Shown: positions 36,301 through 39,300 of the stretch, in pieces
How the letters are laid out: each line of letters begins with the position of its first letter
Numbering within the stretch: position 1 is the stretch's first letter
DNA from: Escherichia coli O127:H6 str. E2348/69
GTDB taxonomy: Bacteria; Pseudomonadota; Gammaproteobacteria; Enterobacterales; Enterobacteriaceae
DNA length: 64,000 bases
NCBI RefSeq assembly: GCF_000026545.1
Contig: NC_011601.1
Direction: 5' to 3' (one strand)
Position numbers: made by a program

Positions 36301-39300
36301 TCCCAAGCATCCACTCGCCATCATCACCCCAGTGCCTGCTAAACAGATCGCCGCTAAGCTGCACCGTAGAAGTGTCTTCATGCTGAGCCAACTGCCCTAC
36401 CGCCGTGTAATGATAACGCCCGCCGATAACGCGTAAATTCAGCGTCTGACCATCGCCACCAGCGTGATCGCGTCGCTCCATCACAAATGCCTGATTTGCC
36501 GCCCGCAGGTTATTAAAATATCCACCAACTTTGGCATTCAACACCGGCTGGTAGGCAGGCGTAGGTTCCGGGTCGGGGGTTGGGTCGGGATCCGGCGTGG
36601 GATCAGGATCTGGAGTCGGGTCTGGATCAGGCGGCGGCGTCGGATTGACTTCTTGTGATCGCAGATACCAGTCGTTGTTATCTTCCACCAGCGTGTAGTC
36701 ATACGCCCCCATATTGACGTAGCCGCTTCCTGCCAGACTGAACTGCGCATTGTTTTGAAACTGCGTGGGATCAGCTGCGAAATCAACTACTTTAATACCT
36801 GTAGATGTCGGCTCACCAATCCCTGTAATGGGATTAATCACAACCGTGGTATTGCCAGCAGTATTACCGTTCAATACCAGTTGGTCGCTTGCTGAGTCAT
36901 CGCCGTTTAATTCGCTATCGAGCAGTAGCGTACCGCCGCCGGTATAATCACCATTTACCGTCAGCGTGTCGCCAGCGACGCCATTTTGCATACTGACAGC
37001 ACCGGACGTATTGGTCAGATTGCCATTAACCGTCACGTCGGAAAGATAAGTCAGGCTGTCAGTTTCAAGGTTGGTATTAAGCTCACCTGCCAGCGTCACG
37101 CCATTGGTGGCATTCACCAGCGTACCGTCGCCGCTAAACAGCGAGGCATCCAGCGCCTGGTTCGTATCCTGCTGCGTCAATCGCAACACAGTACCATCGG
37201 TTATGTCGATATCGCCGCCAGAGGTGGCATCGATTGAACGAATATCCTGATTTTGCCCGGTTTCAAAAACACCGTCTTCCCCCACCCACAGTGAAGAAAC
37301 ATAAGGAATAATATTCTCCGCTTCACCTTTTAGCGTTCCGTCCTCCACACGTACCGCAGACGTCGCAGTGCCGCTGGCGGTCAACTCCAGCGTCCCGCCG
37401 CCACTTTTAGTCAACGTGCTTACGCTATCCAGTTGTTGCCCGGTACTATCCGCCATCAACCCGCCCCATTGCGTATCTACGCCATCCTCAACGTGTATTT
37501 CGCCATCAGCGCGCATTTCAATATTCCTGCCCTGACCTGTTGTAGCCGAGCGAGTGTCAACATCAGTCGTCACATCCATTTCACTGTGTTGTTGGGGATC
37601 AGTGAAGATCACTGAACGGTTGTAACTTGTGTCCCCCAATTGCGAATTATCGCTGACTTCAAGCGTACCGGAGGCGATTTGCGTATTACCGAGATAACCG
37701 TTGTTATTCGCCAGCTTTACGCGCTGATCCCCCGCATTAATGACGACATAAACGCCATTCTGGCTGGCATCACTACCGCCAATATGTAAATCATCGCCAC
37801 TGCTGATATCAACGACATCATTACTGCCAATCACTGTCCCCCCGCTGCCGCTGATTTGCAGACCGTCATTGTATGAGCTATCGCCATCCCAGGTGGTGAA
37901 ATCAGAGAGATCCAATACTCCGCCATTTAGCACGATCGATTGCGGATCGCTCTGCATTGCCCGTAAATCGGCCTGATTCCCCGCCAGCGACAATACGGCG
38001 TTATCTTCCACCACAATATCGCCGGTTAATGCCATCGACTGCGCCCCTGTCAGGAGATAGCTGCCATCTTGCGCTACCGTCAACTGTCCTTCACCCTGAA
38101 TCGAGCCGGAAAAACCGCCCTGGTTTACTGTAACATTGCCGCCTGCGTCGATATTCAAAATGCCATTAGCAAAACCGGTTAATGAGTGCACAAACGTTTG
38201 TTGTGTATTGCCAACATTCAGTTCTGCCTGATACTCAGAATGAACAGTGCTGCCGACCATCAGACCAAAGCAATCCTGCGGATCGCTCTGACAGTGCGTG
38301 TCGCCGACATTCATTAACTCATCGCTGCGCCCCAACGTCACCTCGCCATTCTGGATACTCATCTCGCCGGTAAACGCATTATTGTCGGCATTGAGGACTA
38401 ACTCTCCCGCTCCCTCTTTAACGATGACTCCCGTTCCGGCAAGAGAATCAATCGCGCCATCGTTGCTGGTATTGCCTATTACCAGCGTTTTATCGGCGGC
38501 AATGTTAAATTCAGCCACACTATGACCGATATACATAAAGCCCCCCGCCGCTGCCGTCGCCGAATGGTCATATCCCGAGGCGCTGTTATTTTCATCAATC
38601 ATCACACCATTGTTTTGGTCATAATTATCATCAACAGAAATATCAATAAGATACGGGGATGTGGTGCTGCTGGTATAAATTGCTCCGCCATAACCTTCTG
38701 CATAGTTATTGGTAAAGGAGGTATTATTAATTATCGTTTTTCCTGAAAGATGTGTGTTATCCGTACTATTATCCGTAACATCAATGGCGCCGCCATCCCC
38801 ATCACTATAACTTGTTGATGTATATGCCTGGTTATTATTAAAAGCATCATCACTTAAATAGACGTCATTATTGATGGTATAAATTGCACCGCCTTTGCCG
38901 TCATTAGCGATGTTATTGTGAAATACGGCGTTAGTGACACGTAAATCGGCGGCACCGGTATCATTGGTACCGGCAGAATAGATTGCTCCGCCATAGCCTC
39001 CTGCAACATTACTGTCGAAAATAACATTCGCAAGATTTATCGTTGAGTTTTCTTTAGCAAAGATAGCCCCACCATTATTATATTCGCCACTAACCGAGTT
39101 ATCAGCAAACAGGGTCATCCCTGTTTCATTTTGTGGTGATATCGTAAATTCAGCACCTTGCTGCAAAAATACTGCGCCACCGCTGGCATTATTGGCCATA
39201 CCCGAAAAAATCAACCATTGCCCATCCGCGATGCTCCAGTCCTGCATATTGCCTGAAAGGCTTTGCCTGCTGGCCTGACAGCTCGCTTTGATATCATATC

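What the first reader, a model, noticed from the sequence alone, without database searches (positions are those of the whole stretch)
36565..36640. Slippage-prone (PDPT)n linker repeat in the yfaL autotransporter
An imperfect 6-12 bp periodic DNA repeat encodes PTPPPDPDPTPDPDPTPDPDPTPDPEPTP between the passenger and the beta-barrel. Such repeats commonly expand or contract and change passenger display length. The protein here is 1254 aa, which may be a few residues longer than the K-12 length I remember.
Basis: partly seen in the sequence, partly recalled or inferred. Interest (0 to 1): 0.25.

Follow-up and report, generated by a model that had tools for sequence, protein, structure and literature searches.

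The report
Variable proline-rich stalk in YfaL
The repeat encodes an ordinary proline-rich spacer that joins the surface-exposed part of the E. coli adhesin YfaL to its membrane barrel; its length does vary between strains by small in-frame repeat gains and losses, but the copy in this window has the commonest length, the same as in K-12.

Summary
The window is E. coli E2348/69. The quoted peptide (PTPPPDPDPTPDPDPTPDPDPTPDPEPTP, residues 924-952) is encoded on the minus strand at 36557-36643. It lies between the autochaperone domain and the pore helix and barrel of yfaL.

Across about 5,400 complete E. coli genomes I found nine in-frame lengths, 20 to 40 residues, plus one 168-nt deletion. Two copy-number series sit on nearly identical flanks. 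One is an 18-nt unit present 1, 2 or 3 times. The other is a 12-nt unit present 0, 1, 2 or 3 times in E2348/69's own allele family. I predicted a -12 nt slippage product from the window sequence and then found it in 10 genomes.

- The linker here is exactly as long as in K-12. The 4-residue difference comes from an upstream ATG (2 aa) and a "DA" insertion in the passenger (2 aa).
- The DNA is only weakly repetitive: period 18, 75% match, with scrambled codons.
- Change is slow. About 98% of this allele family keep the modal length, and no frameshift variants were seen.

Proline-rich linkers at this position are typical of the family (80% of 148 representatives). This is an ordinary finding of low interest.

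The parts
35648..39406 (-). yfaL/ehaC coding sequence as annotated in RefSeq (1252 aa plus stop). The mechanical ORF extends to 39412 (1254 aa, MNMRIIFL...). Residue numbers in this report use the 1254-aa numbering.
36689..37021 (-). Autochaperone domain (Pfam AC_1, residues 798-908) at the C-terminal end of the passenger. The last predicted strand, DWYLR, ends at residue 918.
   Evidence: E=1.4e-18; strand at query 125-129, which is residues 914-918
36557..36643 (-). Proline-rich linker PTPPPDPDPTPDPDPTPDPDPTPDPEPTP (residues 924-952). It is modelled without regular secondary structure (coil at residues 921-955, pLDDT 75-78).
36560..36631 (-). Four degenerate 18-nt units (PDPDPT x3 and PDPEPT x1) with scrambled synonymous codons. 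Only 5 of 36 wobble comparisons match.
36570..36589 (-). CCCGACCCAACCCCCGACCC: an 8-nt direct repeat (CCCGACCC) at 12-nt spacing. It is the longest exact repeat in this allele. It is also the site where sister alleles carry 0, 2 or 3 copies of the 12-nt unit.
36595..36606 (-). Linker copy of the 12-nt direct repeat CTGATCCCACGC.
36763..36774 (-). Upstream copy of CTGATCCCACGC, in the AADPTQ codons of the autochaperone domain. The 168-nt in-frame deletion in strain VTB97022v lies between these two copies.
36491..36535 (-). Predicted pore alpha-helix (residues 960-974) directly after the linker. It aligns with the helix region of the AIDA-I transport unit.
   Evidence: helix at query 171-185; 4MEE alignment
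35717..36436 (-). Autotransporter beta-barrel domain (Pfam PF03797, residues 993-1232).
   Evidence: E=3.9e-33

Best explanation
The repeat encodes an acidic P-x-P-x stalk of about 30-40 residues. It joins the last strand of the YfaL passenger's autochaperone domain (DWYLRS) to the alpha-helix that plugs the outer-membrane barrel. After secretion it therefore sits just outside the mouth of the barrel. It most likely acts as an extended, non-folding spacer (polyproline-II-like). Such a spacer can thread through the barrel early in secretion and afterwards hold the base of the beta-helical passenger a few nm above the membrane. This part is inferred, not shown.

The peptide is repetitive, but in E2348/69 the DNA is much less so because synonymous codons differ between units. 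Across E. coli the stalk changes length only in frame. Units of 3, 6, 12 or 18 nt are gained or lost between short direct repeats, as expected from replication slippage or direct-repeat deletion. The common length classes are old and tied to divergent yfaL haplotypes. The rare classes are recent copy-number changes on nearly identical flanks. It behaves as a slow coding tandem-repeat polymorphism, not an on/off switch. The E2348/69 allele has the modal length, identical to K-12.
For: Position:
- Pfam AC_1 covers residues 798-908 and the barrel covers 993-1232.
- AIDA-I transport unit 4MEE aligns on both sides of the linker (E=4.8e-34). It has about 11 residues where YfaL has about 40.
- The AlphaFold2 model (mean pLDDT 93.6) has strands to residue 918, coil at 921-955 and a helix at 960-974, followed by the barrel.

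Family trait:
- In 148 representatives at <50% identity, the segment between WYLxS and RPE has a median of 37 aa (range 17-113). 80% have at least 25% Pro, and many have their own repeat units.
- The family consensus reads PxPxPxPxPxxPxPxPxP.

Polymorphism:
- Evenly spaced samples of 5,419 genomes give 64% the same length as here, 22% at -18 nt, 8% at +6 nt and 3% at -24 nt.
- Peptide and DNA alignments place every indel inside the linker.

Recent slippage:
- The 18-nt unit CCTGACCCAACACCCGAT occurs x1 (22 genomes), x2 (about 1,200) and x3 (at least 2 confirmed, about 10 candidates). The x3 and x2 alleles have flanks differing by 1-2 of 500 nt; flanks of the x1 alleles were not compared.
- The 12-nt unit in the E2348/69 allele family occurs x0 (10 genomes), x1 (modal), x2 (8) and x3 (1). 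The x2 and x3 alleles sit on flanks 0-2 of 500 nt from an x1 allele; the x0 alleles sit 12-20 of 500 nt away.
- The -12 allele was predicted from the window sequence before it was found.
- Two O111:H8 strains differ in copy number (H110; H229).
- The 168-nt deletion lies between two exact 12-nt repeats.

Stability:
- 2,016 genomes are at least 99% identical to the K-12 301-nt segment, so they carry no indel.
- Every indel seen is a multiple of 3.
- Wobble matches between units are 5 of 36, against 13.4 +/- 3.4 expected (P=0.00045).
Against: - No experiment or tool result here addresses the function of the stalk. The spacer and threading roles are inferred from position, composition and general knowledge of proline-rich regions.
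- pLDDT of 75-78 shows the model is fairly confident of a path for the linker. This neither proves nor excludes an extended free stalk.
- The census is by sampling (160 evenly spaced rows) plus targeted searches, not a full extraction. Frequencies of the rare classes are lower bounds.
- The number of independent slippage events was not established on a genome phylogeny. Recombination can move linker alleles between backgrounds. Strain 98193, for example, has K-12-like flanks (2/500 differences) but 7/96 differences in the linker.
- The codon-scrambling statistic is post hoc and rests on one lineage.
Confidence: 0.8

Rival explanations
1. The length classes are simply old, stable allelic differences between deeply divergent yfaL haplotypes, spread by descent and homologous recombination. 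On this view the repeat is not appreciably slippage-prone today.
For: - The four common classes track flank haplotypes. All sampled B2-type and K-12/O157-type alleles are 96 nt, and the B1/STEC-type alleles are 78 nt.
- The segment is 87-100% identical across E. coli, so the alleles are old.
- The +6 class occurs on several flank backgrounds, and strain 98193 is a local mosaic, as recombination would produce.
- 2,016 genomes including K-12, BL21 and O157:H7 show no indel.
Against: - Copy-number series exist on flanks that differ by only 0-2 of 500 nt: 18-nt unit x2 and x3, and 12-nt unit x1, x2 and x3.
- Derived alleles contain perfect tandem copies.
- A contraction predicted from the 8-nt repeat exists in 10 genomes.
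- Two O111:H8 strains differ in copy number.
- This rival explains the common classes well but not the rare ones.
Confidence: 0.3
2. The rare length variants are sequencing or assembly artefacts in a repetitive, GC-rich stretch.
For: - Strain 1105 (+24) and KUN2017-0933 (-12) are singletons.
- Many of the assemblies are probably long-read based, which can give indel errors (general knowledge).
Against: - All variants are in frame and consist of whole, exact units.
- The -36 allele is in 22 independent complete genomes, the +12 in 8 and the -15 in 9.
- The -36 peptide also appears as a protein cluster of 36 member sequences from other assemblies (P0003).
- Long-read errors are typically 1-2 nt homopolymer indels, which would break the frame.
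Confidence: 0.03
3. The repeat is a contingency (phase-variation) locus that switches YfaL expression on and off by frameshifting slippage.
For: - It is a repetitive tract inside a surface adhesin gene.
- Some yfaL genes are annotated as pseudogenes.
Against: - Every indel seen is a multiple of 3 nt: -168, -36, -24, -18, -15, -12, +6, +12 and +24.
- No frameshift was seen within the linker in any of the 27 alleles extracted. Two of the three pseudogenes, SCU-308 and Z0117EC0005, have no stop in the segment translated; OkiPb01681 also reads in frame across the linker, but the rest of its fragment was not checked for stops.
- The units are 12-18 nt and mostly imperfect, with at most 3 copies.
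- Lab lineages and O157:H7 are invariant.
Confidence: 0.01
4. Length and sequence variation of the stalk is adaptive. It could be immune escape at an exposed, immunodominant proline-rich epitope, or tuning of reach to the thickness of the O-antigen or capsule layer.
For: - Pertactin's proline-rich R1/R2 repeats vary in number between alleles (PMC8931430).
- yfaL as a whole is unusually divergent. E2348/69 and K-12 share 83% aa identity overall and about 70% in the passenger.
- The linker can differ more than its flanks, as in strain 98193.
Against: - No association with serotype, host or pathotype was tested.
- 64% of genomes share one length across phylogroups.
- The range (20-40 aa) corresponds to at most about 6 nm if fully extended.
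- The C-terminal region including the linker is the most conserved part of the protein, at about 94%.
Confidence: 0.12

Closest known systems
TibA proline-rich domain (ETEC self-associating autotransporter, AIDA-I type)
   Same: A proline-rich segment of about 50 residues separates the junction/autochaperone region from the membrane-embedded C-terminal domain, the same position as in YfaL (PMC3835316). Both proteins are AIDA-I-type type Va autotransporters.
   Different: It is a different protein with a different repeat sequence. No copy-number series is described in the text I read. The function of the YfaL segment has never been tested, and no paper in the searched library holds both 'yfaL' and 'proline-rich'.
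Pertactin R1/R2 proline-rich repeat regions (Bordetella)
   Same: These are proline-rich repeats in an autotransporter passenger whose repeat number differs between alleles on a slow, between-strain timescale. They are loosely structured (PMC8931430).
   Different: R1 and R2 are loops of the beta-helix, not the linker between autochaperone and pore helix. The units differ. Pertactin variation is linked to vaccine-era allele shifts, and nothing comparable is known for YfaL.
AIDA-I transport unit (PDB 4MEE)
   Same: It is homologous on both sides of the linker (E=4.8e-34), with the same order of autochaperone end, pore helix and 12-strand barrel.
   Different: AIDA-I has only about 11 residues where YfaL has about 40. 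The long P-x repeat is absent.
Length-variable repeat stalks of bacterial surface proteins ('periscope proteins')
   Same: In-frame variation in the number of tandem coding repeats changes the length of a surface-protein stalk between strains. The concept is reviewed in PMC9704523, which was listed but not read in detail.
   Different: Those involve whole folded-domain repeats of hundreds of nt, high DNA identity and large length changes. Here the units are 12-18 nt with at most 3 copies and a few nm of change.
Simple-sequence contingency loci (phase variation)
   Same: The mutational mechanism is shared: misalignment between direct repeats during replication.
   Different: There are no frameshifts, no on/off outcome, few and imperfect copies, and change occurs over lineage timescales.

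Membership tests
Type Va (AIDA-I type) autotransporter YfaL/EhaC | C-terminal autotransporter beta-barrel domain | tested here: met
   Pfam PF03797, E=3.9e-33, residues 993-1232. The AF2 model shows a strand barrel after residue 990. 4MEE matches at E=4.8e-34.
Type Va (AIDA-I type) autotransporter YfaL/EhaC | Autochaperone/junction domain at the C-terminal end of a beta-helical passenger | tested here: met
   Pfam AC_1 PF18883, E=1.4e-18, residues 798-908. PATR repeats are also present.
Type Va (AIDA-I type) autotransporter YfaL/EhaC | Alpha-helical segment preceding the barrel (pore plug) | tested here: met
   The AF2 helix is at residues 960-974. It aligns to the corresponding AIDA-I segment.
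Type Va (AIDA-I type) autotransporter YfaL/EhaC | Orthology to yfaL: same locus and same gene in other E. coli | tested here: met
   The match to E2348/69 yfaL is 100%. The gene is present in 5,419 of 5,426 genomes, once each. It is flanked by nrdA and ubiG-gyrA.
Type Va (AIDA-I type) autotransporter YfaL/EhaC | N-terminal Sec signal peptide | not tested
   The N-terminus MRIIFLRKEYLSLLPSMIASLFS... looks like an extended signal, but no predictor was run.
In-frame coding tandem-repeat polymorphism (VNTR) of a surface-protein linker | Tandem coding units whose copy number differs between strains on otherwise near-identical sequence | tested here: met
   The 18-nt unit occurs x1, x2 and x3; the x2 and x3 alleles have flanks 1-2/500 nt apart, and the x1 flanks were not compared. 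The 12-nt unit occurs x0, x1, x2 and x3; the x1, x2 and x3 alleles have flanks 0-2/500 nt apart, and the x0 alleles sit on flanks 12-20/500 nt away.
In-frame coding tandem-repeat polymorphism (VNTR) of a surface-protein linker | All length changes preserve the reading frame | tested here: met
   The observed changes are -168, -36, -24, -18, -15, -12, +6, +12 and +24 nt.
In-frame coding tandem-repeat polymorphism (VNTR) of a surface-protein linker | High DNA identity between units in the allele at hand, so that it is itself unstable | tested here: not met
   For E2348/69, TRF gives 75% matches, the repeat finder finds nothing, the longest exact repeat is 8 nt and wobble matches are 5 of 36. About 98% of its allele family keep the modal length.
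Phase-variable contingency locus | Slippage changes the reading frame or promoter spacing and switches expression | tested here: not met
   No out-of-frame linker variant was found among the 27 alleles extracted or in the sampled length differences.
TibA-like proline-rich domain | Proline-rich segment placed between the junction region and the membrane-embedded domain | tested here: met
   16 of 29 residues are Pro at 924-952, between AC_1 (to residue 908) and the helix (from residue 960). The TibA layout is from PMC3835316.
TibA-like proline-rich domain | Sequence homology of the proline-rich segment itself to TibA | not tested
   The segments are low-complexity, and no direct comparison with TibA was made.

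The most novel reading that the evidence does not exclude
The modal linker length is actively maintained. On this reading, synonymous codon scrambling in the common alleles is selected because it suppresses slippage. The rare perfect-repeat alleles are short-lived excursions, and stalk length is tuned to the thickness of the LPS or capsule layer or to immune pressure. The evidence does not exclude this. Wobble matches between units are significantly fewer than random recoding gives (P=0.00045). Perfect-repeat alleles show more copy-number variants than the scrambled one.
Probability: 0.1. Interest if true: 0.4.

Novelty: new member of a known kind. Interest (0 to 1): 0.15.

Why it matters
It matters little for biology at large. 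The finding documents that the YfaL/EhaC stalk is a slow, in-frame tandem-repeat polymorphism of 20-40 residues, and that such proline-rich linkers are the rule in AIDA-I-type autotransporters.

Practical consequences:
- The linker could serve as a minor typing marker within STEC/B1 and B2 lineages.
- People who use YfaL as a surface-display scaffold should know that natural stalks of 20-40 residues all occur in apparently intact genes.
- Length differences between YfaL proteins should not be attributed to the linker without checking. Here they come from start-codon choice and a passenger indel.

Tried and rejected
- The search for homologous proteins with a 306-aa segment returned almost only gene fragments. 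It was useless as a census, though it yielded the -36 allele P0003 and paralogue linkers.
- The repeat finder on the linker found nothing.
- The promoter/terminator scan of the gene showed nothing above shuffled expectation and nothing at the linker.
- The Pfam Trypan_PARP hit on the linker (16.9 bits against a cut-off of 100) is compositional and was discarded.
- Literature searches for yfaL plus 'proline-rich' gave 0 papers. Two papers I wanted were not held: Drobnak 2015 on linker nomenclature and Ko 2012 on YfaL display.
- I considered using BLAST identity bands to count length classes. I rejected this because SNPs and gaps are confounded, and used record spans of evenly spaced rows plus allele-specific queries instead.
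- Rows of length 216 were ambiguous between K-12-type alleles and the 3x18 allele. Fetching two of them showed they are 3x18. The remaining similar rows are counted only as candidates.
- I did not scan genome contigs or metagenomes for orthologues outside E. coli. The polarity of the indels (which length is ancestral) is therefore unresolved.
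Full report
**Identity of the window and the gene.** A 601-nt segment around the finding is 100% identical to E. coli E2348/69. It matches a single place in 5,419 of 5,426 complete E. coli genomes, always annotated "AIDA-I family autotransporter adhesin YfaL/EhaC". In E2348/69 the gene lies between nrdA and ubiG-gyrA and is annotated as 3759 nt, which is 1252 aa. The mechanical ORF at 35648..39412 on the minus strand gives 1254 aa because it starts two codons upstream, at MNMRIIFL.

**The observation.**
- The peptide PTPPPDPDPTPDPDPTPDPDPTPDPEPTP is present as residues 924-952, window 36557-36643 on the minus strand.
- 16 of these 29 residues are proline, against 1.2% proline in the rest of the protein.
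- At the DNA level the repeat is weak. TRF gives period 18, 2.6 copies, 75% matches and score 52.
- Self-identity is 0.52, 0.55 and 0.70 at lags 6, 12 and 18.
- The repeat finder reports no family.
- The unit is therefore 18 nt (PDPDPT), not 6-12 nt.

**Position in the protein.**
- Pfam finds AC_1 (autochaperone) at residues 798-908 and the autotransporter barrel at 993-1232.
- The AIDA-I transport unit (PDB 4MEE) aligns on both sides of the linker (E=4.8e-34). It has about 11 residues where YfaL has about 40.
- I built an AlphaFold2 model of residues 790-1254 from a 97-sequence family alignment. It has mean pLDDT 93.6 and pTM 0.89.
- The model has beta-strands up to DWYLR (residue 918), no regular secondary structure at 921-955 (pLDDT 75-78), and a helix at 960-974, followed by the barrel.
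- By the known topology of type Va autotransporters, the segment N-terminal to the pore helix is extracellular. The linker should therefore sit at the outer mouth of the barrel. This is an inference.

**Comparison with K-12.** The two proteins are only 83% identical: about 70% in passenger residues 250-750 and about 94% from residue 800 onward. The four-residue length difference has two sources, MN at the ORF start and a DA insertion at residues 548-549. The linkers have identical length and differ only in the first few residues, NPTPP against TPPSP.

**Census across E. coli.** I read length differences from the record spans of evenly spaced rows in three searches with different query alleles. 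The table combines 160 rows.

| Length relative to E2348/69 | Rows | Share |
|---|---|---|
| Same | 103 | 64% |
| -18 nt | 35 | 22% |
| +6 nt | 13 | 8% |
| -24 nt | 5 | 3% |
| Other | 4 | rare |

- I extracted 27 alleles in all. In the 26 intact ones every indel lies inside the linker; the 27th, VTB97022v, carries the 168-nt deletion described below.
- Measured between SQE and YQP, the linker is 60, 72, 78, 81, 84, 96, 102, 108 or 120 nt, which is 20 to 40 residues.
- One strain, VTB97022v, has a 168-nt in-frame deletion between two exact copies of CTGATCCCACGC.
- Both copies of that 12-nt repeat are also present in the window, at 36763-36774 and 36595-36606.

**Old alleles or recurrent slippage?** Both contribute.

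A distance matrix of 500 nt of flanks shows that the common classes follow haplotypes:
- E2348-like alleles (B2 strains, by my knowledge of the strains) and K-12/O157-like alleles are 96 nt.
- O26/O111-like alleles are 78 nt.
- The +6 class occurs on several backgrounds.
- Strain 98193 has K-12 flanks (2/500 differences) but 7/96 differences in the linker, which looks like a recombination mosaic.

Allele-specific searches revealed copy-number series.

The O26/O111-type allele carries a perfect tandem of CCTGACCCAACACCCGAT:
- One copy occurs in 22 genomes.
- Two copies occur in about 1,200 genomes.
- Three copies occur in OkiPb01681 and RM11911, with about ten similar rows as candidates.
- The flanks of the three-copy alleles differ from a two-copy allele by only 1-2 of 500 nt. 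I did not fetch any one-copy genome, so its flanks were not compared.
- Two strains named O111:H8 differ: SF4-1 has two copies and TW05614 has one.

The E2348/69 allele family comprises about 1,140 genomes at 95% identity or more:
- The 8-nt repeat CCCGACCC at 12-nt spacing (window 36570-36589) is the longest exact repeat.
- Strain 1105 has three perfect copies of the 12-nt unit. Eight genomes, including MS1170 and A20, have two. Their flanks are 0-2 of 500 nt from a one-copy allele.
- I then constructed the contraction that slippage at this repeat would give and searched for it.
- KUN2017-0933 carries exactly that junction. Nine further genomes (the AR_0017 group) carry it together with loss of one CCG. 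These zero-copy alleles sit on more divergent flanks, 12-20 of 500 nt from the alleles compared.
- About 19 of roughly 1,140 genomes (about 1.7%) of this family therefore depart from the modal length.

**Stability.**
- 2,016 genomes are at least 99% identical to the K-12 301-nt segment and so carry no indel. They include K-12 derivatives, BL21 and O157:H7.
- All changes are multiples of 3 nt, and no frameshift was seen in the linker.
- The four units in E2348/69 match at only 5 of 36 wobble comparisons.
- Random synonymous recoding with the window's codon usage gives 13.4 +/- 3.4 (P=0.00045). With uniform usage P is 0.006.
- Each proline column uses all four proline codons once.
- This test is post hoc and rests on one lineage. 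It fits the picture that the common allele is a de-repeated, stable state, while perfect repeats mark recent duplications.

**Family context.**
- HMMER against 1.84 billion representatives found 3,660 relatives of the C-terminal 465 residues.
- In 148 of the best 150, the segment between the WYLxS strand and the RPE motif at the helix start has a median of 37 residues. The 10-90% range is 25-55 and the full range is 17-113.
- 80% have at least 25% proline.
- Many carry their own repeat units, such as PDPDPx, PPPEPV, GVTDP, TEPPA and PGPEPEK.
- The family consensus itself reads PxPxPxPxPxxPxPxPxP.
- E. coli paralogue fragments also differ in linker length among themselves (P0029, P0032 and P0035).
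- TibA is described as having "an additional proline-rich domain" (residues 627-677) between junction and membrane domain (PMC3835316).
- Pertactin's proline-rich R1/R2 repeats vary in number among alleles (PMC8931430).
- No paper in the searched library combines yfaL with "proline-rich".

**How it most likely works.**
- Shown: position, composition, lack of predicted regular structure, in-frame polymorphism and slippage signatures.
- Inferred: the segment is an extended, acidic, polyproline-II-like spacer. It cannot fold prematurely, it can thread the barrel during hairpin formation, and afterwards it holds the passenger base off the membrane.
- At about 0.31 nm per residue (general knowledge of PPII helices), 20-40 residues span about 6-12 nm. 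The natural range therefore changes reach by at most about 6 nm, and the E2348/69 stalk is at most about 10 nm.
- Whether this matters for adhesion, secretion or antigenicity is untested.

**Verdict.** It is an undocumented instance of a well-known kind of feature and of low interest.

Noticed in passing
window 36560-36631 (minus strand): Synonymous codons are 'scrambled' between the four 18-nt units. Wobble matches are 5 of 36 against 13.4 +/- 3.4 expected (P=0.00045), and each Pro column uses all four Pro codons once. This may reflect selection or survivorship against slippage-prone DNA. The test is post hoc and rests on a single lineage.
   Followed up: partly
window 35648-39412 (yfaL as a whole): yfaL is unusually divergent within E. 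coli. E2348/69 and K-12 share 83% aa identity overall, about 70% in passenger residues 250-750 and about 94% in the C-terminal 450 residues. The 601-nt linker segment ranges from 87% to 100% DNA identity across 5,419 genomes. This suggests diversifying selection or old recombining alleles in the passenger.
   Followed up: no
window 39407-39412: The first in-frame ATG gives MNMRIIFL (1254 aa), but RefSeq starts at MRIIFL (1252 aa) as in K-12. ORF-length comparisons with K-12 are affected by this.
   Followed up: yes
window 36763-36774 and 36595-36606: An exact 12-nt direct repeat, CTGATCCCACGC, occurs twice 168 nt apart. Strain VTB97022v has deleted exactly the interval between the copies. This removes the end of the autochaperone domain and half of the linker while staying in frame, giving a 1194-aa protein.
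   Followed up: yes
L018 (strain 98193) compared with L001/L007 (K-12): The flanks differ from K-12 at 2 of 500 nt, but the 96-nt linker differs at 7 positions, giving PDPAPVPV at its end. This is a local mosaic, probably a short recombination patch from a +6-type allele.
   Followed up: partly
L003, L023, L025 (strains SCU-308, Z0117EC0005, OkiPb01681): Several yfaL genes are annotated as pseudogenes, with an internal stop or a missing C-terminus. The linker itself reads in frame in all three, and the fragments of SCU-308 and Z0117EC0005 that I translated contain no stop. The gene seems dispensable in some lineages.
   Followed up: no
summary: One of the 5,419 yfaL matches lies on a record classed as a plasmid rather than a chromosome. 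I did not look at it.
   Followed up: no
P0002: A single metagenome-derived YfaL fragment lacks the whole segment from LVEDNNDWYLRS through the linker (AYDYT|PAYQP). It could be another direct-repeat deletion or an assembly artefact.
   Followed up: no
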